Positions 11,667-40,587 of a DNA stretch of 64,000 nt are shown here, in pieces (position 1 is the first letter of the stretch; the number at the start of each line of letters is the position of its first letter). Both the position numbers and the translations under genes were made by a program. Source of the DNA: Felis catus (Eukaryota). Location of the stretch: NCBI RefSeq assembly GCF_018350175.1, contig NC_058379.1, forward strand, positions 22,196,001 to 22,260,000, in the 5' to 3' direction. Below the pieces are notes generated by a model that worked only from the letters and a program-made list of their open reading frames with translations, was not told where the DNA came from and did no database searches.

Positions 11667-11875
11667 CTGAGTGGCTGCTCATCATGCAGACAGCCTTGGC
11701 CTTGGCCAGCTCCAGGGCGGTGATCCACTGCTGCCGCTCTACCTCCGAGCTGGCCTTGAGGTGGTAGGTCCTTGCCCCACTGGTCAGCACGATACTGCAA
11801 GAGTCCTCCGTGTCAAAGTGCGCGGTGGACAGGTTGATGGTGCCACGACAGGTGTGGGCCATTTCACCCTGATTT
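11667..11875 (-). CDS. OSBP2: OSBP2 coding exon 2 (C-terminal half of PH domain)
   Basis: Acceptor CCTACAG|A (AG 11877-11876). Reads (R)NQGEMAHTCRGTINLSTAHFDTEDSCSIVLTSGARTYHLKASSEVERQQWITALELAKAKAVCMMSSHS. Donor CAG|GTAGTG (GT 11666-11665). 209 nt; AG+A completes the split Arg codon from exon 1. Confidence 0.96.
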
Positions 11876-13831
11876 CTGTAGGATGCAAGAGAAGGTATGG
11901 GGTGAGGCTCCCAAACTCAATACCTCTAGACTGCTCAAGGCAAATCCTCAGAACCTCAGACCCTTAGAACTGAGAGAGTCCCTGGAGTCAGAGCAGGGAG
12001 ATAATGCCTGATGGGATTGACTGGTAGGGGCTTGGCTGAGGGGCGCTCAGTGGGGAGATAGCAAAGGGAGGAGGGCCCGCATTAGTGCCAACTGCAGGGC
12101 ATGCTGGCTGTGGGTTAAGCCCTTGCAGACATGAGGAAATGGATAAGGGTGACTGTCTAGAGACCTGTGAGGCAGCACAGACCACTAACTCCAACCCAGC
12201 CTCCTTCCACTAAGTCTCAGAACCACAGAGCTGGAGCAGGATGGCAAATACCACTGAAACTGAGATTAGAGACCCAGAACCCCAGAGGGTGGATTTGGAG
12301 GCACACCCTGCCAGGAGTGACCTAGGAACAGAGATCCACAGAGCAAGGATGCCACCACACTCTTCTGGCCCCACAACAAATGGGAAGAAGGCAATGGCGG
12401 GACTAACACAGTGCTGCCTCATGACGGACATGACCTTATAACCTTTGCTGGTTATAAGATTATGGAGCTGATGGTACCAAAGTAAGGGGAAATGGAAGTG
12501 ACTGAAGTGCAGGCCATTTCCAACTGTGACCAATGTCTAAAAACAGATCCAACCATCATGACTGGATCTACCTAACTTAGTCCTTCACATACTTAAAGGA
12601 AATTTGGAACCCTCACAACATACCAAATCTCTTTTCACAGAGAGTATTGGAAAAGGAAGAGCAATTGGTGGTCAGCATGTAACACAGCCAGTGGCAGAAG
12701 CTCATTTGGCAAATTCTGCTGCCCTTTGATGCTGGTTGTTCCTCATGTTATTTTCTTGATTCTTCTACCAGTTATAAAGTCAAATGACTTGACACTCAAC
12801 AAGACATTCAGCTTTTATGTGAACAGCTTATGCCTTTTCCAATTTCCTCCTGCTTTGGCTACATTCCTTAGAGAAGATGACATAGTTTATACTTGAGGAA
12901 AAGTCCCGCTCCTAGGTGCTGACATGTTCTACTTGAAGAAAACTCCTTCTAATTAACAAAACTGGCAAAGATGAGCATACCTGTTGGAAGCCTGCCCTTT
13001 TTGATTCAAGGACTTTTTGGCTAGAGGCTGTTCAGGTGCTAAACAATACAGTAACTAACCAAAAAAGGCCACTATGGCTCAGCTCAAAAAGAAGGCGGGG
13101 AGGTGGTGACCATTCTAGGCAGGGGGAACAGAAAGGGCAAAGAACATAAGGCAAGGTGAACTTTACAGGTTTCAAAAAAGAAGAAAAGTTTCCGTGTAGT
13201 AAGAGCATTGAGAACAACAGAGTGAATGAGAAAAAGGTGAAGCTAGAAAATTACATAGGGGCCAGATGCAATACTTTGTGGGTTATGTTAGGATTTAGAC
13301 TTTTATCTCAAAACTAAAACAGTGGGCCTCCTAGGCCTAATGTTAGGAAAGAAGCAGAGGTGGCCAAGAGTTACAGAAATTCCTATGGAAAACGGGGAAT
13401 AGAAGTACCTGGTATGAGATGGGATATGGAAGCCAGGCCACTGTGTGGTATCAGAGTAGGCTGGAAGTTATCCAGTGGCTATTGTATTGGATTACAACCC
13501 ATCAACTAAAATAAATACCCCTGAGTTCATGCTGATATAAGCAAATAGTTGAAGGGATAAATAAATGGGGGAGAAGGGACAGATCTTCTTTAATAAAAGT
13601 AGATGTGATCACAGATATAGAAATTCACTAAATGCAATGTAGGATTCTAGATTGGATTACAAGATAGAAAAAGACATTAGAGAAAAACTTGTGAAATATG
13701 AATAAAGCTGGAGGTTTAGTTAATAGTATCATATCATGTTAATTTTCTGGTTTTGATAATTGTACTTTGCTGAGATAAGATATTAACATTAGGGGAAGCT
13801 AGATGATGGATACTTGAACTTTTCTATAAGA

Positions 13832-14002
13832 CTCCTCCTCCTCCTGTTCCGCCTCTTCCTCCTCCTCCTCCTCCTCCTCTTCCTCCTCCTCCTTTTTCTT
13901 CTCCTCCTCCTCTTCCTTCCTTCCTTCCTTCATTCTTCCTTCTTTCTTTCTTCTTTATTCTTCTTCCTTCTCCTCCTCCTTCTCCTCCTCCTCTTTCTTC
14001 TT
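13832..14002 (+). repeat. (CCT)n/(CTT)n polypyrimidine-polypurine tract
   Basis: About 170 bp of almost pure C/T; it explains ORFs 13814-14080 and 13824-14012. Confidence 0.95.
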
Positions 14003-14160
14003 TGTAGATCACCAGTTTATTTTAAAAGTACACAACACAGGAATAGCCAGATGGAAGAGATAAATAGGAAAAGAGTGTAGAGTTTCCACGCTCTCTGAGC
14101 ATGCCACTGTCCCCATATCTCCACATGTTCACCATGAAAACTCTGGAAACTCTCCAAACC
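14003..14160 (-). mobile_element. MER21-like LTR fragment
   Basis: caggaatagccagatggaagagat...ctccacatgttcacca...ggaaactctccaaacc resembles antisense MER21-type LTR. Confidence 0.5.
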
Positions 14161-14408
14161 ACAGTATAAGTTATTTCAAAATTAAAAATAAAAATTTTAA
14201 TGCTGCTATCACACTCTTCCCAGAGTCATAGCTGAAATGAAGTCTTGTGGCCAGAACCTGAACTCACTTGCTGTCAGGCTCAGTGACAGGGTGGGTGGGA
14301 TATGTTCCCAATGTTACTGAAGAACAGAAGCCCTAAGTCCCTATTATAAGGCCTAGCTCTGGACTGGGCTCTCCAGAGTGAGGTGCAGGAACTTTGAAAA
14401 TCACTAGA

Positions 14409-14848
14409 GGGTTGCCTGTGTGGCTCAGTCAGTTGAGCATCTGACTTTGGCTCAGGTCATGATCTTACAGTTTGTGAGTTCGAGCCCCACATTGGGCTCA
14501 CTGATGTCAACATGGAGCCCTCTTCAGATCCTCTGTTCCCCTCTTTCTCCAACCTTCCCCAGTTTGCACTCTCTCTCAAAAATAAATAAACATTTAAACA
14601 AACAAACAAACAAACAAAACTTAAGATTTTTTTGGTAAGGTTTATTCATTTTTGAGAGACAGAGCATGAGCAGGGGAGGGGTGGAGAGAGAAGGAGACAC
14701 AGATTCTGAAGCAGGCCCCAGGCTCTGAGCTGTCAGCACAGAGCCTGACCTGGGGCTCAAACCATCAGCCACAAGATCATGACTTGAGCCAAAGTCAGAT
14801 GCTTAACGAACTGAGCCAACCAGGTGCCCCTTAAGTAAAACATTTTTA
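14409..14848. mobile_element. CanSINE (+, 14409-14619) with a second CanSINE (-, 14626-14830) inserted in its tail
   Basis: Outer TSD AAAATCACTAGA (14397-14408, 14849-14860); inner element flanked by CTTAAG. Confidence 0.9.
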
Positions 14849-15189
14849 AAAATCACTAGACAAAAAGTAAAGTTGTGGGTAAGGCTCAGGGAGGGAGAGA
14901 GAAACTGCCCACTCAAGACAAACTGGAAACCAAACTTTAAAATCAATGAAGAAAATCAATGCTAACAAAGAAGCCAACAAAGTCAAATGCTCAGCAGATG
15001 AATCACTTCAGACAAAATGGATGTATCAGAACAATATTTTTAAAATGAATGTAAATAGGTTTAATATTCTAAAGATGAAGGAATAATATCAATAAAAGAG
15101 AAATAATTTGTGAAACAAAGCTGGTAAAAATGAAACAAGAACAAGTAGACATGAAAAAGTAACAGGGAATTTCAGAAAATGAAAATATA

Positions 15190-16260
15190 AGCAGATAAGC
15201 TTTACCAGTCACCCAGCATCCACATCTAAATTTAACCTTAACTCTTTGTAACTAGAGTTACTTTTCATTAAAAGATTTGAGGGGAGATTGATTTTTCGTT
15301 TTATTTTTCTGCATTATTGGAAGAAATTATGTAGCAACACATGGGAATTTAGGAATTAAAGGTCCATTAAAATCATCAAGGTCCAATATATTTACTTGTC
15401 TTGGAATTTAACTCTGTTCTTTTTTCTTTCATTTAGATGTTTTGTGGTCAATCCATTTTCCACTAGTAGCCAAAGTGATATTTTTTGTCCTGTTACTCAG
15501 TTTTTAAGATTTCAATGCCTTCAAAGTAAGTCACAAAAGGGTCCAAAATTCAGAGTCATATCATAAAATTCAGGTTGTTTTTTGGGAGTGGTGCACCTAC
15601 CCATGTTGTATATAAGCTTTTGTTTCTCCCATTGTAAGTTCTGGCTGAGGTAACTTCTCCTATGAGAGTCAACCTTCCAGGGCCACCCAACAGTCCAGAT
15701 GGTGGAAAGGTTAAAGTCCCACTCATGGCACACTGTGGACTTGGGTCTGCAAGCAGCAGTGGCAATTCCTATCCTACCCACCCTGGAAGGAGAGCTTTGG
15801 AGGTGTGCAACAACCCAGAACCATCTATTCTCATTGAGCCCTAGGCATATTTAGTGCCTCAAGACAAACCAGGCCATGTGATAGGGTTTGCCAGTTATAT
15901 GAGAGCTCATATCCAGCACACATGATCAAGTATCTTCTGCCAGTTTTTAAAAGAATATGTTTTGTGGCATTACTTTACATTCAGTGAATGTTTTAAGTAT
16001 TTAGAACAAGTAGAGACAAAATATGGAACACCTGCAGTAAACTTAACTGTAGGAGAGGCTACCATAACTAACATTCTTCTAAGTGAGTCACACTGACTCT
16101 CAACCAAATAATATTCAGCTGTTCTGATGGCCAGTGTCCTTGCCACAGATAAGAATATGACATCAGCTATCAGAACTTGGAAGCCCGTAATAGTTTATAT
16201 AGAACTTCCTAAGCACTAACTAAGCTGTAATAATTAATGTAGCATTTTGGCTAGTGACTA
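15190..16260 (-). mobile_element. Possible very old LTR-retroelement gag-protease relic (ERV-L/Gypsy-like)
   Basis: Collinear degenerate motifs PELTMGE..(S)LWLL..IDHK..LDLDDF..RVKVKFRCG echo ERV-L gag-pro PDLTVG..LWHWL..IDRK..PDLSQF..RVTVHWGKG. Many stops and a frameshift. Confidence 0.35.
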
Positions 16261-16266
16261 CCCACC

Positions 16267-18357
16267 TGTATTGGATATAAACCTTGTGCACCAGCTCAGA
16301 GACCCCTTACCACCTCCTTTATTATCTCTTGGTACCCCATGTGGCTTGGGACACTCCTCCATTTCTGAGCTTGGAAGGATGCTGAATCTCAGAGTGTGGG
16401 ATCTGGCTTCTTGAGTGGCCATCAAGAGGCTAGATTTTTGCAATCCACTAGTTTAGAAAGGTTTTCACCTCACAGGCTGAACAATGACCAGTGGGAAGTG
16501 GGAAATAGATGGGAAGCAGGCAGATAAATACTCCTCATTCTTCCCTCAGTGGACCTCTCCAAAGTATGCTTTATGCTTGAAAACCTTTTGGAGAAGTCCA
16601 TGAGCCCAGAGAATGAGTAGCTCCTATGACCCTTGCAGTCTGCTGTGAGGTCATAGCCAACCTATTAAAGTATTGCATCACTTTGTATCTTTCCCTTACC
16701 TTTACCTTTTTGCCTCCACATCACCAATGTTTGTCTCGCTGAGTGTCCAACCTGTCAGCAGGAGGGACTGACACAACCTTCATGGTATAACCCAATCTTT
16801 GGGAAGAATAAGACATCCATCAACTAGATCAAACAGCTTTCACTTGGTGGGGCAGGGGGAGGGGAGACTGAGCAATTTGTCCTTACTGGAATCCATGTGT
16901 TTTCTGGTAATAGGGTTGCCTCCAGCAGCCCTATAGTCCATAGTTATCAAATCCTCATATGCCTGCCTAGATTCTCATAGGACACAGCCTCAGATTAAGT
17001 CACCCACTTCAACTAAGGAAGTGAACCAATAACTCCTGATTGGAGTTCGCCTATCTTACTGTGAACCCTGCTGCCACTCGGGAGCAGCCAACCTGACAGA
17101 AGAATGGAATGGCCTAGTGAAGGCTCAGCTGGGGCACCTACTGAGGAGATATCTATGGGCTTGAGCATCAATCCCCCAGGATGAAGTATATGCCCTGAAC
17201 TGACAACTGATATCTGGATGACCTGTATAATTACAGAAGATGGGTCCAGGAGTAGCCCTGTTCACTGTTACACATAGTGACCCTAGCAGAGTCTATGCTT
17301 CTCATCAGCTGGGCTAAGCTGGGTTAGAGGTTCTGCTTCCAGGGAAAGGGGAAACACAACACAATAAGGCTTCCATTAAATCAGAAGCTGATGCTACCCC
17401 CTGGCCACTTTCTGCTCCTCCTGACAGTGACCAACAGACCAAGAAGGGAGTGACAATACTACTGGGTCGCTAATACCAACTTCCATGAAGATTTAGGTTA
17501 GTGGTACATATGGGGATGGGAGAGGAATGTCTGGAATAGAGCTGAAGGGATTCCCCCAGAGACTCTCTTAATACTTTTATGTCTGGTAATGGTTATTAAT
17601 GGGCAAGGCAACAAGGAACTCAAACCCCTCAGGACAAATGTCACAGACCAGCCAAAGTGCTAGCAGAGAATGAAGAGGATCTAGAATGGGTAGGGGGGAG
17701 GAATATGATGAATATCAATTACAGCATTGGGACCAGACATAGCAGCAGCAAATGAACTTGTTTCATAGCCTTCTTACTTCAGTTTTCCGGGCAACCTCAG
17801 TTAGCCACCAGGAAAGGGACTCTGTCATTGATTGGACTTGCACCTCCAAGGAAGGGGTAAAGATGTCTTCATTCTCTCAAGAGAATGGATGTCCCCACAT
17901 CGTAGTAGGAAAGCTGACACCATGGGAGGGCACAAGAGGACCTGAGTAGCGCAAGGTGTGAAGCATATTGGACACAAACCTTGTGCACCTTCTCAGATTC
18001 CCTCGACCACCTCCTTCTCTGTCTCTCTCGGTCGGTACCTCAGCCTTGCCCAATTGTCCTTCCGCTTCTGGACTTTCATGAAATGCCACAGTGGGAGACA
18101 GGAGGTGGAAGCAAAGGGGGCAGATAAATTCCACCTCCATTCTTCCTTCTGCAGACTTCTCAGAGGTGTGTTTTCTCCTTGCATATCTTCTGGAGAAGTC
18201 CATGTGCCAGACCTGCTGTCTCTCTGCAGCTCACTGTGATGGGACATCCATCCTTCCACTTCCTGTTTCTGCCTCACCACCCTGGGACCGCATCTCTCAG
18301 AGTGTCAGCCCTTTTATCCTTGCCTTGGCTCTGTTGTCTAGAGGACCTTCATAAAAA
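16267..18357 (+). mobile_element. Internally deleted ERV-L (LTR16/HERV16/ERV3-16A3-like) provirus relic: 5' LTR about 16267-16725, integrase and dUTPase remnants about 16738-17610, 3' LTR about 17963-18357
   Basis: Both LTRs start alike (TATTGGAyAyAAACCTTGTGCACC) and share GGCAGATAAAT and TGGAGAAGTCCATG blocks. Degenerate peptides AECPTCQQ, FVLTGIHVFSG, AANLTEEWNGLVKAQL, VYALN, AGLEVL, LMLPPGHF and QQTKKGVTIL match ERV-L integrase/dUTPase. Ends are approximate. Confidence 0.8.
17927..18011 (-). ncRNA. MIR3200: miR-3200 precursor hairpin orthologue (5p arm 17999-17978, 3p arm 17958-17937)
   Basis: Minus strand reads GGTGGTCGAGGGAATCTGAGAAGGTGCACAAGGTTTGTGTCCAATATGCTTCACACCTTGCGCTACTCAGGTCCTCTTGTGCCCT (85 nt). 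The arms pair (CTGAG/CTCAG, CAAGGT/ACCTTG). It is nearly identical to human mir-3200 as I recall it, which also lies in OSBP2 intron 1. Confidence 0.85.
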
Positions 18358-19112
18358 TTGTCCATAGGCAGGAAGAAAATTGATAAGCAACAAATTTGAA
18401 TCCAGACACACAGAAAGACAAAAGCTACTAATTTGGAGCAAAGCACTTATCCTTGTGTATGACTTTCATTCAATTGCTAGCTCAAGCTGAGTCTGATTCA
18501 CCCGGCAAATTCCACTCTAATCTTCCAAATCCAAATTCAGCAAGTACTTCCTATGGGCTACTATATAAAGGAATTGTGCTAGAAACTGGAGAGAGGGTAA
18601 ATATAAAGATAAATGAAACACATTTTCGGGCCTCAAAGAACATTCCATCTTGTGAAAGAGACAGACCTGTAAATGGTAAACTGCTATTTAATAGGCAGAG
18701 GAAAATAAACTCAAAATAAAAGGAGCATTTACTTTATGAAAATTCATTGAGTTGTGTCCTTATAATTTACCTACTTTTCTGCATGTATGTTACACACATA
18801 TAGTATGTTGTATGCTACATACATAGCCATTGTTAATAAACAGTTTGCTTTAAAAACAAACTCAAAATGGAAGGATAAGTCGCCAGTGGTGGGAGCTCAG
18901 GAGACAGAATGACACTTTCCTTTCCAGATGGATCAAGGAGGTACATACACTGGAGCAGAATTTCAAACAATGAGGGGACTCTGCCCAGGCAAAGGCTAGG
19001 AGGAGGACCAGGCCAACCCAGAGCAGCGATGTGGAGGCATGTGGCTCTGGGAAAGCCCAGGGATCTAGGACAGCCAAAGGAGAGGGTCTACACATGGCCA
19101 GGCTTGACGATG

Positions 19113-19543
19113 AGTATTGAGTTAAACTGTGCCCCCCAGGAAGATATTGTGAAGTCCTAACCCCTAGTACCTGCAAATATGACCTTATTAGGAAATATGG
19201 TCTTTGAAGATATAATCAAGTTAAGATGAGGTCATTAGGGTGGGCCCTAATCCAGTATGACTGGTGTCCTTATAAGAAGAAGAGAGAGAGACAGAGGCAC
19301 AGAGGGCAGTAGAGATGGGAATGATGCATCTACAAGCCAAGGAGCACCAAGGATTACTGGCAAACATCAGAAGCTAGCCAGGCCTAGAAGAAAACCTCCC
19401 CTACAGCCTGCAGAGAGAGTACAGTGCTGCTAGCCCTTTGATTTTAGACTTCTAGCCTCTGGAAATGTGAGGCAGTAAATTTCTGCTGTCTTTAGCCACC
19501 CAGTTTATGGTGTTTTATTACTGCATCCCTAGGACACTAAACA
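19113..19543 (+). mobile_element. MaLR solo LTR (MLT1B/C-like)
   Basis: Characteristic gaagtcctaacccctagtacc, gttaagatgaggtcattagggtgggccctaatccagtatgactggtgtccttataagaaga and CA end. Near-TSD CGATG/TGATG. Confidence 0.85.
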
Positions 19544-20309
19544 TGATGGCTGAACAGATGAGTTCAGGAAGGGTCCTTTGGAAGTTCCCATACAGCTGAG
19601 CTGGTTTATCTCTACATATCGATCATGGGACTGCATTTCAACCCCCACCCCCACCCCCAATCTCCACTGAGAACACTCAGTCACCACAGCACCCATATGG
19701 CTCTTTTTTCCCTAGAACAGTCCTGCCCCCAAACCACCCATCGCAGCTCAGAGCTTTCCCCTTTTCCTATACCATTGAGGTTGGAGCACCCAAAATGACC
19801 CGCAGCAAAGATTCCAAGGATTCAGGTTCCATCAATGACATGACACGTATTAACTGCAGAAGCAAGTTAGGATGGAACTGAGCAGGAGAAAATTATTCAT
19901 TGTGGTGGCAGGAACTGTGACAGAGGGAGCAGGATTTGTTGCCATCGGCTTCCTGATTCTGTGGCTCCCTGCAGCAGCAGCCGCCTACCAGCAGAGCTAG
20001 TGAGAGTCTGGGGACCCTCAATACTCCTGACTTTCAGCTTCCAGCTGCTTTTCCAGCCCTCCCAGCAACTAGGAAGCTACCTCACCCCTGGCAGCATAGC
20101 CTTTCAGCTAACACTAGCCAGACTCATTTCTGGTATGTGCAGCTGAGTCCTGGCCAAGGCACCTTCCTAGAGGCTACAACATCTCAGAATGAATATCCAA
20201 GACTGCAAATAAGGTTTGATGTGTGCTGTTTGGGATCTCTAGCATCCAAGGCACCCATAGGTTCATCCCATGCATTTGCAAAGATTTTAAAATCTGGATC
20301 CAGAGATGC

Positions 20310-21240
20310 AAAATGTATAGCCAACAACCCAATTTAAAAATAGGCAAAAGAGGGGCACCTGGGTGGCTCACTCAGTTAAGCATCTGACTTTGGCTCAGGT
20401 ATGATCTCGCGGTTCATGGGTTCAAGCCCCACGTCGAGCTCTGGGCTGACAGCTCAGAGCCTGGAGCCTGCTTTGGATTCTGTGTCTCCCCCTCTCTGCC
20501 CCTCCCCTGTTTGTATTCTCCCTCTCTCTCAAAAATAAATAAACATTAAATAAAAATAAAAATAGGCAAAGGATTTGAACAGATACTTCACAAAAGGGGA
20601 TCTCTGAATAACTAATGAGCATATGAAAAAGGGCTCAACCTCATCAGTAATTAGTAAACATACATGTGCACCATGATCCAGCAATTCCATTCCTATGGAC
20701 CTCCCCATTAGGGATATATGCATGTGGTTACCAAAGACATGTGCTGGAGTATCTGCAGCCTTCTTCTTAAAAGCCCCAAACTGCAACAACCCACATGTCC
20801 ATCCATACCATCCATATTAGAATCGATAAGCAAATGGTGGCTTATCCAATTCATGGCTTATCCAAATGGTAGAGTATTATACAGAAATTAGAATAAATCC
20901 ATAAGAACCACGCAAACGACCTGGAAGAACCTCAAATATAATGTTGAGCAGAAGTCAGACACAAAGAAAACGTATTGTGTGAGTCTACTTAGACAAAGCA
21001 CAGTTACAGGCAAACCTAAGCTCTGGGGTGAGAAGTCAAGGTAGCAGTTACCCTTAAGGAGCAATGAGTGGAGGGGAGACAAGGGGAGGCTCCTGGGGGT
21101 GGGGGGGCTGGTCATGTTTTATTTCTTTAGCAGGGTCAACGGCTATCTAATGTGTTCATTTGGGGAACATCTCCTGAGCTGTATATATATTTACCACTTG
21201 TCTCTATGCATATCAAACCTCATTAAAATGGCATTTAAAA
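20310..21240 (+). mobile_element. Ancient L1M fragment interrupted by a CanSINE (20352-20560)
   Basis: L1 phrases aacaacccaatttaaaaataggcaaa and gatccagcaattccattccta. The SINE is flanked by TSD AAAAATAGGCAAA. Confidence 0.7.
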
Positions 21241-21249
21241 AGAACAGAG

Positions 21250-21560
21250 ATGCAGGGAATCCTTTCCTGGCAGTGGAGGCAGCAACAACTGGTTCTCTAG
21301 GGCAGCAGAAGTAGCAAAGCCTAGGGAGCATCAACATCCAGTGCCCAGGTGGCAATGTCCTCTCCAGGATAGTTTTGTGACATGATTTTGGTCATAGACC
21401 TGGCTACTAGCCTGCCTTGTTCTCACCTCCCCCCCTCTGAGACCTCTGTCCTCCTACCTTTCCAGGAATCCTGTCTGTGAGTTCCTGAAGATCCTTCCAG
21501 TAAATACATCTTTTTTTTTTTTTTTTCCTTAAAATATCCAGAGCTGGGTTTCTGTTGTTC
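21250..21560 (+). mobile_element. LTR33-like ERV-L LTR fragment (similar old LTR piece at about 19850-20150)
   Basis: gcagtggaggcagcaac..., atccttccagtaaat...ccagagctgggtttctgttg terminus. Confidence 0.5.
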
Positions 21561-22005
21561 TGCTAGGACAGGTGGACAGCGGCCACAGAAGGGATGTCAG
21601 AAGGCAGAGAAGACAGTGAAGAAGGTCGTACAAAAGACACATGCAGGAGAAACAGATTTCGGTTCTTTTATCTCTCAGGCCATGGGGATGCTGTTAGGAT
21701 CCTTCCAGATCTAAGTAACAAAGCTCAGCTTATTCATTCTAACTACCACATCCTGAGGACTTACCTTAGAGATGTCTCACATGGATTAGCCACTTAAGAT
21801 GTGATAGGAAAGGCAGGAATGACCTCCCTGTTCCAGAGGCAGAGGCTGAGGCTGAGGCTTGGCTAAGTGGGCAGCTCATTGCAGGTTCTAAGGGGGACCA
21901 AGCCAGTCTCACCCATTCACCCGCAGCCCTGTTTCTTACCCAGAGGGGTGCATGGACTTGTCCCCAGGCTTCATTTCTACTCTTAAAAGTCATCAAAGCT
22001 GGTTA

Positions 22006-22113
22006 GGGGCACCTGGGTGGCTCAGTTGTTAAGTACCCAACTCTTGATTTTACCTTAGGTCATAATCTCATGGTTCATGGGATCAAGCCCCTCATCAGGT
22101 AAACATTAAGAAA
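22006..22113 (+). mobile_element. Internally deleted CanSINE (another CanSINE at 22467-22660 and a gapped one at 23746-23889, minus)
   Basis: SINE head joined directly to the tail. 21-bp TSD AAAAGTCATCAAAGCT(G/C)GTTA. Confidence 0.8.
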
Positions 22114-25100
22114 AAAAGTCATCAAAGCTCGTTAAATGGTGCCATCCAGAAAATGCTCAGTATGGCAACTGTCAGAAGTGGCCAAACAGAAGCATTTACT
22201 GTGCAGATGAGATTGTCACCATGAGACCTGACACCGTTTCACTTTGCTTCTGGCCTCATTCTTTTCCATTTAGAGCTTCCCTCGAGAAATGCTCAAAAAA
22301 TGCTGCTGCAAATTCTACAGGAAGGACATTTCCAATGTATTTTTTTTTTCAATAAAAAAGGAGACTTGGGAGCCATTCTCCAGTAACTGAAATTCACATT
22401 GCTGCATGTTTACACAAATGGAGGATGACAGATGGTGATTTACAAAGGCCAGTGGCTTTTACAAAGTGGCTCAGTCAGTTAAGCATCTGCCTCTTGGTTT
22501 CAGCTCAGGTCATGATCTCACAGTGTGTGAGTTCATGCCCCACACCAGGCTCTTTGCTGACAGAGTGGAGCCTGCTTGGGATTCTCTCTCCCTCTCTCTC
22601 TGCCCCTTCCCCGTTTGCTTGCTCTCTTTCTCAAAATAAATAAACAAACTTAAAAAAAAATTTTAACTGTAAACCAATAAATCCAGGCTGGAACTGAGTT
22701 TCTCTGCCACAGCACAGGGCTCTGTCCATGCAGAATACTGGGGTATCCATCCAGAAAAATGTTTTGCTTTACCTGGTCATTGTTTCTATTTGCCACTTGC
22801 AAGTGAGAACACACTTGTGGCCTATCCTGTCCCTGCCCAGGTCAGAGCTGACACGTGGTGAGAGCTCAGGGATGGTGGGCAAGCTGAGTGAATTAATACA
22901 GGAGTGTTACACAAGCAAAGGAATAAACCCAGGGAGATGACCCAGCCCTGGAACCACCCAAAGTCCTGCCAAACTCACATTCTTAAGGTAGAACAGTAGG
23001 GTAACACCCTACCCTTGAACATCACTCACTGAAAAACCACTAGACCCTTTTTGTGGTTCCACCAAAATGTTAGAATACCATGTACTAGCCACATATAAGG
23101 TGGTTCCTAAGAATATTAAGTGAAAATCCTGTCACAGAATATTAAACAAATACTTTACATCTCAAATTTAGACTAAAATGTCTCATCAGGTAGAAAATGG
23201 ATGAACATGCCGCTTTTGCTGCCAATGCAATAACAACAAACCAGAATATTTTCCCAAGTTACTGCACTTTTAAAGTGTGATGTTGGTCAGGCAAAAGCCT
23301 GACCCCTGGACTTCACCAAGCAGAATTCCAAGTCCTCTCCAGCATGCCTCCTCAATATCTCTCAAATCCACCCCCTTCACTGAAGCTGTCCCGCTCAGCC
23401 CTGTACTGGGCCATGGTCATCTCTCACCAGGACATACCCACAGCTCCTCCATCAGCCTCTGCCTTGCCCCTGAAAGTCCACTCGTGCTACATTTTTCTAA
23501 AACTTCAGTCTGAGTCTGTCAATATGCTGCTTTAAACNNNNNNNNNNNNNNNNNNNNNNNNNNNNNNNNNNNNNNNNNNNNNNNNNNNNNNNNNNNNNNN
23601 NNNNNNNNNNNNNNNNNNNNNNNNNNNNNNNNNNNNNNNNNNNNNNNNNNNNNNNNNNNNNNNNNNNNNNNNNNNNNNNNNNNNNNNNNNNNNNNNNNNN
23701 NNNNNNNNNNNNNNNNNNNNNNNNNNNNNNNNNNNNNNNNNNNNNAGGGAGAGAGAGAATGCTAAGCAGGCTCCATATCCACACCCAGCACGGAGCCCCA
23801 TGTAGAGCTTGATTCCAAAATGCTGAGATCATGAACTGAGCTGAAATCAGGAGTCAGACACTCAACCAACTGAGCCACCCAGGAGGCCCTAATATCCTCT
23901 TTCTTCAGGACAAATTCCTTGCTCCTGAATAAGACTTACCAGCTCTTCCTGAGGTAGAGTAAAGTGCCACAACATTTTTCAAGGGCTGAAAGTAAAAAAC
24001 TGTCAACTCAGAATCCAGTGAAAATATCCTCCAAGAATGATGGAAAGGTAAGGCAATTCTCAGATGAAGGAAAACAAACATTCTTTCAGACCAGCAGACC
24101 TACCCTAAAAGAATGGCAAGAGAAAGATTCTCTAGAAATAAAGGAAATGATAGAAGAAGGAATCTTAGAACATCAAAGAGGAAAAAAGAACATGATAAAC
24201 AAAAATATGGATTAAGACAATAGATATTTCTTCTCTTGAGTTTTTAAACTATGTTTGATGGCTGAAGCAAAAATTAAAACACTGTATGATGTGATTCTAC
24301 ATGTATATAGAGGAAAATGTAAGACTACACTATCCTATTAATAGGGGAAGGTAAAGGAACTTACAGGGAAGTAAAGTTTCTATACTTCATTGAAACTAAT
24401 TAAATGANNNNNNNNNNNNNNNNNNNNNNNNNNNNNNNNNNNNNNNNNNNNNNNNNNNNNNNNNNNNNNNNNNNNNNNNNNNNNNNNNNNNNNNNNNNNN
24501 NNNNNNNNNNNNNNNNNNNNNNNNNNNNNNNNNNNNNNNNNNNNNNNNNNNNNNNNNNNNNNNNNNNNNNNNNNNNNNNNNNNNNNNNNNNNNNNNNNNN
24601 NNNNNNNNNNNNNNNNNNNNNNNNNNNNNNNNNNNNNNNNNNNNNNNNNNNNNNNNNNNNNNNNNNNNNNNNNNNNNNNNNNNNNNNNNNNNNNNNNNNN
24701 NNNNNNNNNNNNNNNNNNNNNNNNNNNAAGTTATCCAAAGATATATACTCAAAAACACTTTAGAATTATTAAATATAGTTACCATATGATCCAGCACTTC
24801 CAAGAGAAATATAACCAAGAGAAATGAAAACATACGTCCACACAAAAACCTGTACACAAACTTTTATAATAGCATTACACATAAATGGTGGAAATAACCC
24901 AGATATCCATCAGTAGATGAATGGACATAAAAAATGGTATGNNNNNNNNNNNNNNNNNNNNNNNNNNNNNNNNNNNNNNNNNNNNNNNNNNNNNNNNNNN
25001 NNNNNNNNNNNNNNNNNNNNNNNNNNNNNNNNNNNNNNNNNNNNNNNNNNNNNNNNNNNNNNNNNNNNNNNNNNNNNNNNNNNNNNNNCCATCTGTATGA

Positions 25101-26836
25101 AAGTCCACAAAAGGGAAATACATAGAGACAGAAAGTATATGAGTGGTTGCTTAGGACTGGGGGGAGATTCAGGGGTGGAGAGATGGGTAAAGGAGTGATA
25201 GCTAAATGGTATGGGGTTTCTTTGGGAGGTAATGAAAATGTTCAAAAATTGACTATGATAGTTGCACATATCGGTGAATATATTAAAAATTATTAAGTTG
25301 TAGACTTTAAATTCATGGTATATGAATCATATCTCAAAGATTAGAACAAGAATAACAACTGCAATACACCAAAAGGCACCAAGTCAAGAAGTTCATAATG
25401 ATGCTTAAAAAATAAGTCATTAGTGACCCTGGAGAGATGCTAGAGGTCCAACTCATTTGTCTGATAACTGATGAATAAAGGAAATCATGGTGCATTTTTC
25501 CTACTGTTTCCATAGTAACTAAACTATTGGGTAACCAAATGGTTAGATGAGGGGAAGTTTCTCTTTATAGAATTATTCTCACTAATAACTACAAAAGGAA
25601 TGATAGAATATTATCATTTTGCAACCTGTACTGAACTAATGGGTCTAGGAATTTGTCCTCAATGACTGCTGGTGTGTATGTGTGTATGTATGTGTGTGTG
25701 TGTGAGAAAGAGAGGGAAGAACTAGACAACACGTGTCCCCTTTTAATATATCTATGAATCATTTTGCCAATATAATTGAAACTTACTCTGAATTTCTATT
25801 CATCAGTTTACAGTAAATAAAGGAGATAGAAGGGTATCATAAACAGCATTATGGAGATGAAATCAGCAAAATCCAGTCTGTGGGAAACTACAGAACAAAT
25901 GACCTAGTTTTTTTCAACCAATAAATTGCAAGAGAAAAATAAAGAGATGGGGAGAACCTATAAATCACAAGAGACTGGGGAACTCCTTCTCCTTTCCCAG
26001 GCTGTGCTCAGCCATGAGCATCAGGGCAGCCAGGCCCTAAGGCAGAGAGGTTTGGCTGGCATAACCAGCAATATCAGCAATACCAAGGTCAAGAAAATTC
26101 ATCCAGTATGACTGGGTGTGAAGGAACAGAGGATATTTGTTCAGCATGGCTGGAAGAGTAGTTTTATATAGGAAACTGAGCAAATAAGTAAATATATTAA
26201 GGATAGTGGGAGCCAGAGCTCTTATTGTTAGATTCTGAAGTTGGAAATATGGAAGGGGAACATGAGGAAAAAAACTGTCTCTATCCACATAGAAAGCCTA
26301 GAAGTAGTGATGTCCCAATGACAATAAGCACACCCAGCACTCAGAATTTGGCTTCTAGATACCACTTTCTACTAAAAGGAACCAGGGCTCATCAGAGAAA
26401 CACACAGTCCAGTACAAGATAAACCAGGGACATTTTGTTGTGCCAAAAGTAAGGAAATGTCCAGAGTGATAGGAAATGTCAAAAGGACACAGGAGCAAAA
26501 GACTCCTCCTATCCAAAGCTGGGACAATTTGAGTATCAGTATAAATGAGAGTTACTGATAATAACTCACTGGATGAGACAGAAATCCATGAGGTCACATT
26601 GATAAAAACAGATGAGCAGACAAATAAATAAAAAGCTCCTCTTTATAGTACAACACCTTCTAATAAATATGCAAAGAATGGTTATAAGAAAAACCACCAA
26701 CTGGCAACCATCAAAATGATAAATTATTTGATTTGGCCAAGAATAACCAAAGTGTACTAAAAACCAGGGGATGTGTTAAAGAACAGGGTTTTACCTAGCT
26801 TCAAAGTGTCTTCCCATAAAAATACATTCTAATTCT

Positions 26837-27030
26837 GGGGTGCCTGGGTAGCTCAGTCAGCTGAACTTCTGACTCTTGATTTTGGCTCAGGTCATGATCC
26901 CACGGTCATGGGATTGAGCCCCATGTCAGGCTCCATGCTGGGCATGGAATCTGTTTAAGATTCTCTCTCTCTCCCCCTCTGTGCCTCTCCCTGCTCACAT
27001 GCTCTCTCTCTCTCTCTCTCTCTAAAAATA
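26837..27030 (+). mobile_element. CanSINE
   Basis: tRNA-like head, (CT)n, A tail, TSD AAAATACATT(C/T)TAATT. Confidence 0.85.
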
Positions 27031-27039
27031 TAATACATC

Positions 27040-27260
27040 TTTTAAAAATACATTTTAATTTAATTCTAATGAATTACACATTATTATATCAATTATATTC
27101 TCATTTCATTCTAACTAATCATCCCAATTAACTAAACTATAATTTAATTATAATAAATTACTTATTGATTCTAATTGTTTATAATTCCAACCATTTATTA
27201 ATTCTAATTAATTAGTTCTTAGTTCTGATTAATTACTTATTAATCAATAATTATAAGTTA
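27040..27260. repeat. AT-rich low-complexity tract (TAATT-like units)
   Basis: Read directly from the sequence; follows the SINE at 26837-27030. Confidence 0.75.
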
Positions 27261-28189
27261 GCTTTACAGCAGAGAAATCTGGCAAACACCATCCTAACCA
27301 AATGATAAAAGTTACATCACTAGTAGTAGGACAATCAACATCATGTGCCTCTTGATATGGTGCACTGTGAAGGACACAGTAGTGTATCCTGTTGTGTTCC
27401 AAAACAAATCAGGCCCTGAATCTAAACATAAGGGAACACTGGGCAATTCCAAACTGAGGCACATTCTACAAGGTAACTGGCATATATTTATCAAAAATGT
27501 TCATGTCATGAAAGACAAGAAAAAATGGAGGAACTAGTCCACACTGAAACTCAAGTGACAAGACAAGACAACCAAATGCAATCGATGATCCTGGATTGGC
27601 TCTTGTACCTCTAAAGGACATTATTGGGACAAATGGCAAAATATGGATGGGGTCCATGGATTAGATGGTAGCATTGTATCAATGTTTACACTGTGAATAT
27701 AGGAGAATGCCCTTATATTAAGGAATATACACTGAAGTATTAAGTGATAATAGGTATCATGTCTGGAACTTACTTTTAAATGCTTAAGAAATATTATATA
27801 TAAATATAACATAGAAAATGATAAGGTAAATGGAGTATAGCAACAATTGGGGGTTCTCAGGGATGAGTACATAGGAGTTCTCTGTGTTATTATTGAAACT
27901 TCCTGCTAAGTTTGAAATTATTTCAAAACAAAAAATTTATTTAAAAAATCTGGTGAGAAATATCAACAATTGCAATAAATGGACCTTATTTGGATCCTGA
28001 TTTCTAGAAACTGTAAAAAATGTTTTTAAGTCAATGGGGAAATTTTAATATTGACTGAATATTTGATAACATTAAGGAATCATTGTTAAACTTTTGGGCT
28101 TGTTAATGCCATTTTGATTACGTTTTTTTAAAAAACCTGCTATCTCTATAGAGAAACTGAAATATTTGCAAATATTTATTATTAAAATT

Positions 28190-29575
28190 ATTTTTAATGC
28201 TTATTTATTTATTTTTGATAGAGAGAATGCACACGCTTTGGGGAGGGGCAGAAAGGGAGGGGGGGACAGAGGATCAGAAGCAGGCTCTGTCTGTGCTGAC
28301 AGCAGAGAGGCCAATGTTTGAACTCACAAACCTGTGAGATCATGACCTGAGCCAAGATCAAGAGATGGATACTTAACCAACTGAGCCACCCAGGCGCCCC
28401 TCTTTATTTATTTTTAAGCAAATTCTACACCCAACATGGGGCCCCTTATTAAAGTTATTTTTAATTTAAATCATTTTTAACTTAAATCATTTTTAAACTT
28501 AGTCATTAAAATTGGATTAAAGGTATCTTGGATCTGCTTCAAATTAAGTGAGGGTGGGGAGACGATAGACTGATCCAAAAGTAAGACTTGCTCACAGTGA
28601 GTGATGGGGACATGGGGCTCATCATACCTACATCTCTACTTGTATGTGTTTGAAATTCCCCATAGTAAAAAATAAAATCCATTTGAAATCCATTGCATTG
28701 GGTGCCTGAGTGGCTCAGTCGGTTAAGCATCCAACTTCAGCTCAGGTCATGATCTCACAGTTCGTGAGTTCGAGTCCTGTGTCAGGCTCTGTGCTGACAG
28801 CTCAGAGCCTGGAGCCTGGTTTGGATTCTGTGTCTCCCTCTCTCTCACTGCCCTTCTTCTGCTCATGCGCTCTCTCTCTCTCTCTCTCTCTCTTAAAAAT
28901 AAACATTAAAAAAATTTTTTTAGTTAAAAAAAAAAGCGATCCATTGCATTTTAAATTCTTCGCTGTGTCGGGGCGCCTGGGTGGCCCAGTCGGTTAAGTG
29001 TCTGACTTTGGCTCACGTCATGATCTTGCAGTTGTGAGTTAAAGCCCCATGTCAGGCTCTGTGCTGACAGCTCGGAGCCTGGAGCCTGCTTTCGGATTCT
29101 GCATCTCCCTCTCTCTCTGTTCCTCCCCTACTCTCACTCTGTCTCTCTCTCTCTCTCTCAAAAAAAAGATTAAAAAAAAATTTAAATTCTTCCCCGTGTG
29201 TAATGGCAACCAACAGCAGTGCTGAACTGTTTTTTTAAAGGACTTTTATTTATTTACTTACTTACTTATTTTTAAAGTTTACTTATTTATTCTGAGAAAG
29301 AGGAGAGAGAGCATGTGCAGGGGAGGGACAGAGAGGGAGAAAGAGAATCCCAAGCAGGCTCTAGGCTGACAGTGCATAGCCCAATGCAGGGCTTGAACTC
29401 ATGAACCCCTGAGATCATGACCTGAGCCAAGATCAAGTCAGATGCTTAACTGACTGAGCCACCCAGGCATCCCTATTTATTTATTTTTTAGTAAACTCTA
29501 CACCCAACATGGGGCTTGAACTCACAGCCCTGAGATCAGTCATATGCTCCACCAACTGAGGCAGCCAGGCACCCC
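28190..29575. mobile_element. Cluster of five CanSINEs: 28190-28400(-), 28700-28935(+), 28970-29180(+), 29243-29473(-), 29475-29575(-)
   Basis: Each has the GGGGCGCCTGGGTGGCTCAG-type head; TSDs such as ATCCATTGCATT and TAAATTCTTC. Confidence 0.9.
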
Positions 29576-30889
29576 TGGGCTGAACTACTTTAATGATGAA
29601 GGGGACCTCTTGAGTCCCAGTGAGCCTGGCACAGGAATGAGCTGTGCACTGAGTGTCTCAGGAGGAGATAAAAGATGACAGGTCCCCAGGGCAAAGGGAT
29701 GGATCTATTTCAAGACCTAGTCATGGGTACAGAACAATTCAGGATAGTTGAACAGATTTGTTTTTTTAAATCATCGCACAATCTCTGTAGCTGCAGCCAC
29801 AATCTACAGAATGTTCTAGCAACCTAGATTCTTCCTTTTACAAGTGACCTGTTAGCTTAAAATTTCAGCAACACTAAACATATCCCCCTACCAAATACTA
29901 CACTAAACAAAGAAGGTTCTAAAAAAGAAAATCAGCTAGCAAGCTAAGCAAAAGACTAGAACACTACAAATTAGAAGTCAATTAAGGAAACACTTAGATT
30001 GAATTTTAACACACCAAAACCAATTACATTTAAATGCACAGATTACAATATAAACTTACAGATCTGATGGTGAGACACATAATTTATTCAGGAATTCTAT
30101 TCCTTCCTTTCATGGCCTCCAGTATTATGAACACTGATATTAATATTAGGTGGAATAATCTTATGTGAAAGTGACTTCCACTGAGCTTCAAGTGAAGCAG
30201 AAATAGCAGCTAAACTCCAATCAAAACATGACAGCAGCCTGCAAAACTGAAGGTCTCACACCACAGGCAGCCACAGATTTCCCAAACAGAGACTGTGTTT
30301 AAAACAACTCTCACCCCCACTTGTCATGTTCACTGTTTCATTCAGTCAGTGTGGCAGGCCAGGCAGTAGGTTCAGACCATTGAAAAAAACAGCACAGGTC
30401 CAGGCCTCCATGGGGTGGTGGCTCTCCTGGGCCCCCAGAGAATCCAACAAGAGCGAATGACCTTCTGTCTCTCCTCCACCATTTGGACTGAATGAGGGAA
30501 GGGCCCTGTCAGCAGAGAGGGGTCTTCCTATGAACACGTTTCTGAACTCCAGAAGGATAGTACACAGCATGGCTACACCCAAAAGAGCCCTCAAATATGT
30601 CTTCTCATCCTCTGGCAAATCTAGCTCTGCTTTCCTTGATTGTACATGTTAAACAGGAGTGTGAGGTTAAACAGGAGATTTTCGCTAGTTAAGCATTTAC
30701 TACTAGCAAAATCCTTACATTCAAAACATCTCTTTCACTTCTGAAAGAGTTTACCAAGTACTTCCTCATGGTTTGTTTTGAACAGTCAAGTTGGGCTGTT
30801 TATAGATCACAAAAGTGGGGGCCACAGAGGTTTGGAGACTTTCTCCCACATTGGCAGGGACGATTGTGTAACTAACAGGCTACTGTGGA

Positions 30890-31260
30890 AATTACATGGT
30901 CAAAAAGGCTTTAAAAATTGTGATTTCTGTTTGCTCTCTCCTGGATCACTCTCTCTGGAAAAAGCCAGCTGCCATGCTGTGAGGACACTCAAATAGCTCT
31001 TTGGAGAGGTCCAAAGAGAGAGGCACCGAGGCCAGCATCACTTTGCAAGGCACATGAGTGAGCCATCTTGAAAGTGGAGCCTCCAGCCCCAGTCAAGCCT
31101 TCAAGTGAGTGCAGCTCTCATGAGACATCCCAAGCCAGAATCACCCCAACTAACCGCCCACTCAGGAATTCTAGACCCACAGAAACTGTGAGATAATGTT
31201 AATTGTTGTTTTAAGCCACTAAATTTTAGGATGATTTGTTATGCAGCAAGAAAGAATACA
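30890..31260 (+). mobile_element. MaLR LTR (MLT1F-like)
   Basis: gccagctgccatgctgtgaggacactcaa, ccagccccagtcaagccttca, cacagaaactgtgagataa, ttgttttaagccactaaatttt. Confidence 0.75.
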
Positions 31261-32093
31261 CAGGAACACAGAGCCAGCATCTCTGAGGATGAAGAATATG
31301 GCTGCATGGAATGGATAAGTCCATCCCTGTGGGACAGAGAAACATTCCATTGAGCATGGATGTTGCCTGGAAACCCATCTCAGATCAACAGAGGGAGAAC
31401 TTTCTAACAGTCCAAGTTATCAGGAATACCAGCTTGTCTTGGGAGATAGGTCTGTTCTCTGTCACCACAGAGGTTTGCTCAGAGGCTGGTGCTCATGGGG
31501 CAGATATGCCATAGGAAGAAGTCAATGAACAGAGAGATGGTTAGATTGGATGACTTCTAAGTTCCTTTCCTACCAAAGATTCTTCCACTGCCACACCATG
31601 CAGGGACCTGGAGAAACTTGCTCACCAGCTTCCTAGGCACCAATGACATGCCCGTACAATGTGTGTCTGGCTAACAGTTTCTGAAAACTGATTCTTTCTG
31701 GGAGGAAGCAGACAACACATGATCTACTGGTCCTGCCTTCAAACAGCTGTACATGCACATGAGCGGCATATTGCCACCAAGTACAATCTAGGGCTGACAG
31801 GGGAAGGGAGGCAGGAGGGCTTCAGCCCGAAGTCATTAATGTCTAAAAGGTTGCAAAGGCAGGGCACATTGTGAGGCACTCAGGTAAATGCAAGTGACAG
31901 AGAAAACACTATGGAAATCTGCTCAGGGGTTAAGAATGCCCTAATCACATCTCCTGAAGGCAATGACTCAGTAAACTGGCAGGCAAAATAAATTCAAACT
32001 TAGAACTGCAGGACTCAGAAGGAAATTACTTCTGTGCCTGCATCTGGCAAAATAATTTCATTTTCTAAAAATGGAAAATTCAAGGAAAATGTC

Positions 32094-32108
32094 TTTTTTT
32101 ATGTTTGT

Positions 32109-32143
<35 letters not shown>

Positions 32144-32314
32144 TTGAGAGACAGAGCATGAGCAGGGGAGGGGCAGAGAGAGAGGGAGTTACAGAATCCG
32201 AAGCAGGCTCCAGGCTCTGAGCTGTCAGCACAGCAGGACTCAAACTCACCAGCCGTGAGATCATGACCTGAGCTGAAGTCGGACGCTTAACCGACTGAGC
32301 CACCCAGGTGCCCC
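32094..32314 (-). mobile_element. CanSINE with (TTTA)n tail
   Basis: Full SINE; TSD AAGGAA(AA/GG)TGTCTTT. Confidence 0.9.
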
Positions 32315-32689
32315 AAGGAAGGTGTCTTTCTTGTCACAGCATGTGAACAATGTAGCAAAAGGTGGTACCCTCCCACACTCAGCCTGCTTGCAAGTCTCCC
32401 CAAACTGGGAACAGGAACACACCATTAGCCCATCTGTGGCTCAGCAAAACCAGCCCCAGCTCCAGCTGCCTGGACTCTGATCTCTAAGCCACTAAGTCAA
32501 TAGACATTTCCATGCCATGCCCAGATCATCTTTGATATTTCATATCTCTTCCAACTTCTTTTAATCAGCTCCCCATCAAATTATCAGGAAGCTGGGGCTA
32601 AAAGGAACCCCATAGGTCTCCCAGTCCAGCCCCTTTATTTTACAGATGATTAGTGGGATCATTGGAAGGAAGGTTAGAGGCTGGGATAG

Positions 32690-33105
32690 ACTGAAGTATT
32701 TTCCCCAATTCCTAATGTCCTTCATGAATTACAATTACATGTCCACACCCTTTGTCATTGGACTTTGGAGGATCACTCACTACAGTGGGGAGTGGGTACC
32801 CACTGGCCCCACTGATATTGGAAGAGGCCATATGCCTTGATTCAGCCAACAGAATGTGGACCAGAGTAAAGGTGTGCGGGCTCGAGCCAGGGTGCTTCCT
32901 TTCCTGCTCGGCCTCCTACACTTCTACCATCATGGGGAGAAGACTGACTCTGCTAGCCTACTTGTTCAAAGCAGAGGAGTGTCCCAGGTGCTGCTGCTGG
33001 AGGCAGAGCTGCCCCAGCCACCTGCAGACGTGCAAACAAGAATAAACCCCCCTTGCTTTAAACCTCTGAATTTTGGGGTGATTTATTTTGGGGCTGCCTG
33101 ATCCA
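32690..33105 (+). mobile_element. MaLR LTR (MLT1I/J-like)
   Basis: gcagagctgccccagcc...cctgcagac, aataaa, tttaaacctctgaattttggggtgattt. Confidence 0.6.
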
Positions 33106-33172
33106 GGAGTACAAGTGAGATGAGGACCCAGTTCTAACTCTCATCTCCCCTCTCCCCTTTAAGAATACACAT

Positions 33173-33392
33173 GGGGTGCCTGGGTGGCTCAGTCGGTTAA
33201 GCATCCGACTTTGGCTCAGGTCATGATCTCACAGTTTGTGAGTTCAAGCCCCCCATCAGGCTCTGTGCTGACAGCTCAGAGCCTAGAGCCTGCTTTGTGG
33301 ATTCTGTCTCCTGCTCTCTCTGCCTCTCCCCTGCTCGTACTCTGCCTCTCTCTCTCAAAAATAAATAAAACATTTAAAAAATTAAAAAAAAA
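33173..33392 (+). mobile_element. CanSINE
   Basis: Full SINE; TSD AAGA(A/G)TACACA. Confidence 0.9.
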
Positions 33393-33789
33393 GAGTACAC
33401 AGAGCCCATTGTCACTGTGGTATGACAGTAGAGGAAGAAACCAGAAGATGATCTTGGAGAGGCAGAGACGAGGCTGGTCCTAAGAATAAGCAGTGGTTGT
33501 ATGTATTTGGGATGCTTAGAAGATGAAAAAGGAGTCTCTTGTGCCAAAATGCAGATACCTGTCAGCAATCTTTGTCAGCAACCTAACTGAGTGCTTTTGA
33601 TTTCAACACACTTTCTCTTATGCTATCACAATCATTTTTTTTTTGCAAGTGGGGGGCTTAGTAGCTGGTTACAGAAACCTAGAGATGTGGGAAGGGAACT
33701 TAGATGTCTGTTTTCTTGGATAAACTTCCCACAGTCCCAGACAACGGAGCTGCAGGTGGACCCTGCAATGGCACAATGTCCTATCCAAT

Positions 33790-34745: not shown

Positions 34746-34746
34746 G

Positions 34747-38074: not shown

Positions 38075-38117
38075 AGACCACACTAGGGGTCTCCCCAATG
38101 TGAGGTGGTAGAGTTTG

Positions 38118-38138
38118 TGAGCTGTCCCTGGTGCTGTC
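38118..38138 (-). promoter_or_regulatory. RE1/NRSE (REST/NRSF binding site)
   Basis: Minus strand GACAGCACCAGGGACAGCTCA versus consensus TTCAGCACCnnGGACAGCGCC. The CAGCACCnnGGACAGC core is perfect with the canonical 2-nt spacer, and a second right half-site (ATGGACAGCACC) overlaps it. Confidence 0.7.
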
Positions 38139-40407: not shown

Positions 40408-40527
40408 GGGGCACCTGTGTGACTCAGTCAGTTAAGCTTCCAACTCTGAATTTTGGCTCAGGTCATGATCTCACAGTTTGTGAGTCCGAGCCCCACATCT
40501 CCACTGTCAGTGCAAAGCCTGCTTGGG

Positions 40528-40587
<60 letters not shown>

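What the first reader, a model, noticed from the sequence alone, without database searches (positions are those of the whole stretch)
17927..18011. Intronic microRNA hairpin (miR-3200) built from a retroviral internal/LTR junction and retained in a felid
Seen: an 85-nt fold-back, sense to OSBP2 and antisense to an ERV-L relic. Its 5p arm (17999-17978) lies in the first bases of the 3' LTR, and its 3p arm (17958-17937) lies in the internal segment just before that LTR, where the polypurine tract is expected. The 5' LTR copy at 16267 has the same start but no partner arm and is diverged, so only the junction can fold. Recalled: human miR-3200-5p AAUCUGAGAAGGCGCACAAGGU and 3p CACCUUGCGCUACUCAGGUCUG. 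Here both seeds are identical; differences are confined to the loop, the 3' flank and one C>U that is compatible with a G:U pair. Inference: an ERV boundary was exapted as a co-transcribed miRNA before primates and carnivores split and is under purifying selection while the rest of the provirus decays. I do not know whether it is annotated in cats.
Basis: partly seen in the sequence, partly recalled or inferred. Interest (0 to 1): 0.75.

Follow-up and report, generated by a model that had tools for sequence, protein, structure and literature searches.

The report
Cat copy of retrovirus-derived microRNA miR-3200
This is the cat-family counterpart of a known human microRNA gene, miR-3200, lying in an intron of OSBP2 across the edge of an old retroviral insertion; it is likely made at low level together with OSBP2, but two cat small-RNA catalogues do not list it, and its retroviral origin is already published.

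Summary
The hairpin is real and is the felid ortholog of mir-3200 (Rfam RF03405, 98.5 bits against a cut-off of 79). It lies sense in OSBP2 intron 1 and antisense to a decayed ERV-L. The LTR boundary at 17964 falls in the loop: the 5p arm is in the LTR and the 3p arm on the purine-rich internal side. The ERVL/LTR16D2 origin of miR-3200-5p is published for human and macaque. The arms match human products at 44 of 47 nt, with both seeds intact.

Ancient exaptation under selection is not shown. Two cat catalogues lack it, MirMachine's list places it beside a Catarrhini-specific family, basal UG and canonical CNNC are missing, and a stronger non-miRNA hairpin survives in the same relic. One new point: the upstream LTR copy still pairs with the 3p arm as well as the real 5p arm does, so the stem was likely built into the element. 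Verdict: new member of a known family, low interest.

The parts
17924..18015 (-). mir-3200 precursor hairpin (Rfam RF03405)
   Evidence: cmscan 98.5 bits, gathering score 79, full model; fold
17978..17999 (-). predicted 5p arm, antisense to nt 15-36 of the downstream LTR copy
   Evidence: 23 of 24 nt identical to the human 5p product and 27 of 28 to the macaque entry, compared by eye; boundary
17959..17977 (-). terminal loop region holding the internal/LTR boundary (17963/17964) and an apical UGU at hairpin nt 24-26
17937..17958 (-). predicted 3p arm (the dominant arm in human), on the internal side of the boundary
   Evidence: 21 of 23 nt identical to the human 3p product, differences at nt 21-22; human reads 478 (3p) against 43 (5p) over 16 libraries
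17919..17963 (+). purine-rich stretch just before the downstream LTR, where a polypurine tract is expected (inferred)
   Evidence: 71-75% purine against 33-49% before the upstream copy
17964..18360 (+). downstream (3') LTR copy, LTR16D2-like by orthology to the human annotation; 3' end approximate
   Evidence: family name from PMC10671384 and PMC10379226
16726..17963 (+). decayed ERV-L internal remnant with stops and frameshifts; integrase-like at 16973-17350
   Evidence: phmmer E 1.8e-4 to P0011, which carries a weak Pfam rve hit, E 2e-4; 35% over 139 aa; no direct Pfam hit in 6 frames
16267..16725 (+). upstream LTR copy, apparently truncated at its 3' end; end approximate
   Evidence: blastn E 1e-11 and 6e-9 to the downstream copy; 346 of 486 aligned columns identical
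16531..16615 (-). second, stronger hairpin inside the upstream LTR copy, with no Rfam family match (internal control)
   Evidence: z -4.5, 0 of 200 shuffles; best Rfam E 6.1
44420..45096 (-). OSBP2 first coding exon
   Evidence: 98% to jaguarundi and 99% to Prionailurus OSBP2; GT donor at 44419
11876..44419 (-). OSBP2 intron that hosts the hairpin
   Evidence: GT-AG, phase 2, splits the PH domain
11667..11875 (-). OSBP2 second coding exon (rest of the PH domain)
   Evidence: Pfam PH E 1.4e-5; AG and GT boundaries

Best explanation
This is the felid ortholog of the mir-3200 hairpin, spanning the internal/LTR boundary of a decayed ERV-L in OSBP2 intron 1, and it is likely copied as part of the OSBP2 pre-mRNA and predicted to be cut by Drosha and Dicer into a low-abundance, 3p-dominant microRNA with the human seed. 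Shown: the hairpin, its family match, its position and strand, and the boundary in the loop. Inferred: the two arms were already complementary in the element when it inserted (before the primate-carnivore split). Insertion antisense within an intron put the stem into a host transcript with no promoter of its own, and later weak constraint kept the seeds. Untested: processing, level and targets in cats.
For: Rfam 98.5 bits over a cut-off of 79. Intron, strand and host gene. Boundary. 44 of 47 nt identical to human products, both seeds intact, and the same 41-nt arm spacing (by eye); binomial P 0.001-0.009 for an assumed 75-80% neutral identity. Predicted 2-nt 3' overhang at the Drosha end, a lower stem of about 12 bp and an apical UGU. 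The upstream copy's 5p-equivalent pairs with the 3p arm at -20.9 kcal/mol against -19.8 for the real arm; 24 of 8,782 window 22-mers do as well. Two reviews name miR-3200 in horse small-RNA studies (second-hand).
Against: Absent by name and by 4 arm motifs from the Lagana 2017 cat catalogue (27 libraries including brain and testis, a table that holds sequences). Absent from the cat (823 rows), cow and mouse sheets of miRWoods. Listed in the block with Catarrhini-specific Mir-4677 in the MirMachine supplement, and not named in MirGeneDB 3.0 Supplementary Table 1. No basal UG at -14; CNNC at +8, +9 and +21, not +16-18. Fold z is only -2.2, while a non-miRNA hairpin in the same relic reaches -4.5. 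The unselected upstream copy still matches the 5p arm at 18 of 22.
Confidence: 0.55

Rival explanations
1. An unprocessed or non-functional proto-microRNA in cats: the stem is an inherited feature of the element, became a real microRNA only in catarrhine primates, and its likeness to human is slow drift plus selection bias in how it was noticed.
For: No cat entry in two catalogues. Grouped with a Catarrhini family. Basal UG and canonical CNNC are missing. Stems persist in this relic without being microRNAs. The complementarity predates divergence of the LTR copies.
Against: 44 of 47 identity with all three changes outside the seeds, one of them keeping a G:U pair. Horse reports. The cat libraries were shallow, 0.6-7.2 M raw reads, and the human product is itself low, 0-69 RPM.
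Confidence: 0.32
2. The stretch is constrained for a DNA-level or pre-mRNA-level reason (an LTR-derived enhancer or protein-binding site in OSBP2 intron 1), and small-RNA output is incidental.
For: LTR starts often carry factor sites (established knowledge). The upstream copy also keeps a well-matched first 60 nt, 47 of 60.
Against: High identity covers both arms, including the non-LTR 3p arm, and the visible changes sit at arm ends and, against the Rfam consensus, in the loop. That is the microRNA pattern.
Confidence: 0.08
3. The two LTR copies are separate insertions of related LTR16 subfamilies rather than the two ends of one provirus, so the upstream copy is no true control for the ancestral state.
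For: No target-site duplication found. The upstream copy has about 110 extra nt and is truncated.
Against: Same orientation, an integrase-like remnant between them, a purine-rich tract before the downstream copy only, and divergence (K2P about 0.36) that fits an old single insertion. This rival does not change the junction origin of the hairpin.
Confidence: 0.15

Closest known systems
hsa-mir-3200 / mml-mir-3200 (Rfam RF03405)
   Same: Full-length model match above cut-off; both seeds; 41-nt arm spacing; 5p arm annotated in ERVL LTR16D2 in human and macaque (PMC10671384, PMC10379226; table passages).
   Different: One change in 5p (nt 13) and two at the 3p end (nt 21-22). Reads exist for human, but no cat entry was found.
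Other LTR16-derived microRNAs (miR-3681 in LTR16D1, miR-3670 in LTR16A1)
   Same: Same ERV3-16A3/LTR16 element group (PMC10379226 table; PMC5753468 table).
   Different: Both miR-3681 arms are listed inside the LTR. For miR-3200 only the 5p arm is listed there, which fits the junction geometry shown here.
TE-derived intronic microRNAs in general (L2-, MIR-, MITE-derived)
   Same: Stem supplied by a repeat and transcription supplied by a host intron (PMC10136691 table passage lists miR-3200 as ERV-L).
   Different: Here the two arms come from two different parts of one element (LTR start and internal end), not from a palindromic element or two opposed copies.

Membership tests
mir-3200 precursor family (Rfam RF03405) | Covariance-model score above the curated gathering threshold over the full model | tested here: met
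   98.5 bits against 79, positions 1-92 of 92
mir-3200 precursor family (Rfam RF03405) | Seed identity of the mature arms | tested here: met
   nt 2-8 of both arms identical to human products listed (by eye)
mir-3200 precursor family (Rfam RF03405) | Syntenic position in OSBP2 intron 1 | tested here: inconclusive
   Shown for this window. That the human chr22 site lies in OSBP2 intron 1 is recalled; three papers hold both terms (listing only)
Bona fide microRNA gene (MirGeneDB-type criteria) | Unbranched stem with predicted 2-nt 3' overhang | tested here: met
Bona fide microRNA gene (MirGeneDB-type criteria) | Reads from both arms with homogeneous 5' ends in this species | tested here: inconclusive
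   Absent from two cat catalogues; no small-RNA run among the 24 listed; no read-level data obtained
Bona fide microRNA gene (MirGeneDB-type criteria) | Microprocessor motifs (basal UG, apical UGU, CNNC at +16-18); supportive, not required | tested here: inconclusive
   Apical UGU present; basal UG and canonical CNNC absent
Bona fide microRNA gene (MirGeneDB-type criteria) | Arms conserved more than loop and flanks across species | not testable with these tools
   No genome held; no orthologous locus found; only mature human and macaque arms seen in papers
ERV3-16A3 / LTR16D2 (class III ERV-L) | Two same-orientation LTR copies around a pol-derived remnant | tested here: met
ERV3-16A3 / LTR16D2 (class III ERV-L) | Match to the Dfam/Repbase family model | not testable with these tools
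   No repeat library offered; name taken from the human and macaque annotation
ERV3-16A3 / LTR16D2 (class III ERV-L) | Target-site duplication flanking one provirus | tested here: inconclusive
   None found with up to 1 mismatch at a plausible end; the 3' end is not fixed and the element is old

The most novel reading that the evidence does not exclude
miR-3200 is not a catarrhine novelty but a boreoeutherian microRNA, still made in cats and horses. It was born ready-made from a stem that the ERV-L element itself carried across its polypurine-tract/LTR junction, so other intronic antisense copies of this junction are a predictable source of microRNAs.
Probability: 0.35. Interest if true: 0.45.

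Novelty: new member of a known kind. Interest (0 to 1): 0.24.

Why it matters
If processed and constrained in felids, it would move the origin of a family apparently grouped with catarrhine-specific microRNAs back to the primate-carnivore ancestor. It would also give a clean example of a pre-formed retroviral stem becoming a microRNA. That is a useful detail for microRNA-evolution and transposon specialists, not a new kind of system: the gene, its Rfam family and its ERVL origin are already described.

Tried and rejected
No whole genome is held, so other LTR16D2 junction copies could not be compared; none lies elsewhere in the window.

Pfam on six frames of the internal segment: 0 of 6 with a hit. 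PDB search with one frame gave only chance hits. The Ig/fn3-like hits (P0004 and P0008 checked) were rejected as unrelated to a retroviral remnant. P0001-P0003 (71-73% in phmmer, unnamed) look like decayed orthologous or close copies but came without DNA context. A JGI metagenome scan with P0003 found 0 relatives among 96 pattern matches.

The run search listed 24 runs, none labelled small-RNA; no read-level evidence on the hairpin was obtained.

PMC9548565 supplements: 0 hits, but 3 of 7 files were cut and one was unreadable. PMC6242877 supplements: 0 hits, with no check that they hold names or sequences and the PDF unreadable. Both are treated as uninformative.

Paper searches: six species-prefixed names, 0 papers; mir-3200 + ERV3-16A3, 0 papers; mir-3200 + feline + microRNA, 2 listings that looked unrelated and were not read. 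PMC9393553 main text has no '3200' and is reference 146, not the reference 148 that the horse review cites. bioRxiv 10.64898/2025.12.23.696236 main text has no '3200'; its supplements were not seen and may bear on the family's range. Earlier scan findings: none.

Full report
Observation. The minus strand of 17927-18011 folds into one stem at -31.6 kcal/mol, z -2.2, with 6 of 200 shuffles as good. That alone is modest: 20 of 12,120 sampled 85-nt windows in the 64 kb pass the same cut-off. What settles identity is Rfam: mir-3200 (RF03405) at 17924-18015, 98.5 bits against a gathering score of 79, whole model, E 6.7e-18.

Host gene. A minus-strand ORF from 45096 is 98% identical to jaguarundi OSBP2 and 99% to Prionailurus OSBP2, so the window is felid. 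A GT at 44419 and an AG at 11876 bound a phase-2 intron that splits the PH domain. The hairpin lies in this intron, on the host strand.

Retroviral anatomy. Two same-orientation copies begin at 16267 and 17964. Homology starts sharply: 31 of 40 nt match downstream and 10 of 40 upstream. Between them, one plus-strand frame read with X at stops matches P0011 (E 1.8e-4; 35% over 139 aa), which has a weak integrase-core hit. Pfam found nothing directly in 6 frames. The 45 nt before 17964 are 71-75% purine, against 33-49% before 16267. So the boundary lies in the loop, the 5p arm (17999-17978) is antisense to LTR nt 15-36, and the 3p arm (17958-17937) ends 6 nt short of the LTR. The upstream copy gives no hairpin and no mir-3200 hit. 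No target-site duplication was found and the upstream copy has about 110 extra nt, so a single provirus is likely but not proven.

Comparison with primates. Against human products in a miRWoods supplement (PMC6785219, table rows), compared by eye, 5p matches 23 of 24 and 3p 21 of 23, with both seeds intact and the same 41-nt spacing of arm starts. The macaque 5p entry matches 27 of 28 (PMC10671384, table passage). The 5p change sits in a G:U pair and is the same base the upstream LTR copy has, which fits CpG decay (inference). The two 3p changes are at nt 21-22, inside the mature arm. With an assumed neutral human-cat identity of 75-80% (own knowledge), 44 of 47 has P 0.001-0.009. The locus was noticed because it looked like a human microRNA, and no human flank was available, so this is suggestive only. 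The unselected upstream copy still matches the 5p arm at 18 of 22, a level reached by 20% of 276 other 22-nt windows.

Was the stem built in? The upstream copy's 5p-equivalent pairs with the junction 3p arm at -20.9 kcal/mol, as well as the real 5p arm does (-19.8). Of 8,782 window 22-mers, 24 and 50 reach these values. The simplest reading is that the LTR start and the end of the internal region were complementary before the copies diverged (inference; it rests on the two copies being kin). The relic also holds a stronger hairpin with no Rfam match at 16531-16615 (z -4.5), echoed weakly in the downstream copy on the plus strand only (z -2.2; minus strand z +0.35). A surviving fold is therefore not in itself evidence of selection here.

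Processing signals. The predicted duplex has a 2-nt 3' overhang at the Drosha end, a lower stem of about 12 bp and an apical UGU. It lacks the basal UG at -14, and CNNC falls at +8, +9 and +21. The canonical positions are from own knowledge.

Expression evidence. Human: 478 3p and 43 5p reads over 16 libraries, 0-69 RPM. Cat: absent by name and by four arm motifs from Lagana 2017 (PMC5569061, supplements searched and part 1 of file 2 read; 27 libraries of 0.6-7.2 M raw reads including brain and testis; the table holds sequences). Also absent from the cat muscle/skin, cow and mouse sheets of miRWoods. Two other supplement searches were negative but uninformative. Horse: two reviews name miR-3200 in equine samples (PMC11593097, PMC13556994; passages); I did not see the primary data. 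No read-level data for this locus were obtained.

What is known. miR-3200-5p is listed as ERVL LTR16D2-derived in human and macaque and as ERV-L or ERVL in two reviews (PMC10136691, PMC9502224; table passages). LTR16D2 belongs to ERV3-16A3_I (PMC5753468, table passage). Only the 5p arm is listed in the LTR in those tables, which agrees with the junction layout. I found no paper stating that layout, but the library is limited to open papers. The MirMachine supplement lists Mir-3200 in the same block as Mir-4677 (PMC10435380, two passages), which the text calls Catarrhini-specific; reading the block as a node is my inference. MirGeneDB 3.0 Supplementary Table 1 holds Mir-4677 and Mir-2387 but not this name (PMC11701709), for a reason I could not determine.

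Mechanism and verdict. Most likely the element inserted antisense in OSBP2 intron 1 before primates and carnivores split, carrying a ready stem across its internal/LTR junction. Host transcription supplies the primary RNA, and Drosha and Dicer would release a low-level 3p product (0.55). The main rival is an inherited, unprocessed stem in cats that became a true microRNA only in catarrhines (0.32). This is a felid member of a known family with a published ERV origin. The junction anatomy and the built-in complementarity are small additions. Interest 0.24.

Noticed in passing
window 16531-16615 (-): A long hairpin inside the upstream LTR copy, sense to OSBP2, z -4.5 on both strands, no Rfam match (best E 6.1). 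The downstream copy keeps a weaker version on the plus strand only. It could be an LTR structural element or an unannotated intronic hairpin.
   Followed up: partly
window 18080-18164 (-) and 16160-16244 (-): Further windows with fold z near -3 in a 40-shuffle scan of 117 windows along the relic.
   Followed up: no
window 14414-14498 (+) and 35111-35190 (-): Rfam tRNA hits just above cut-off (33 bits) that look like heads of carnivore tRNA-derived SINEs (identification recalled; related repeats).
   Followed up: no
window 44001-46000: CpG island (GC 0.62-0.66, CpG o/e 0.44-0.82) over the OSBP2 first exon and promoter.
   Followed up: no
window 5490-9835 (-): Fragments whose translations look like LINE-1 ORF2 (recalled identification), interrupted by N runs; the window holds 2,237 N.
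   Followed up: no
window about 19120-19500: Sequence that resembles a MaLR (MLT1-type) solo LTR by eye (recalled).
   Followed up: no
P0001-P0003 against window 17154-17596: Unnamed short ORFs that match the decayed internal remnant at 58-77% in tblastn; P0003 spans two frames here. Possibly the same relic in other mammals, called as genes by chance.
   Followed up: partly
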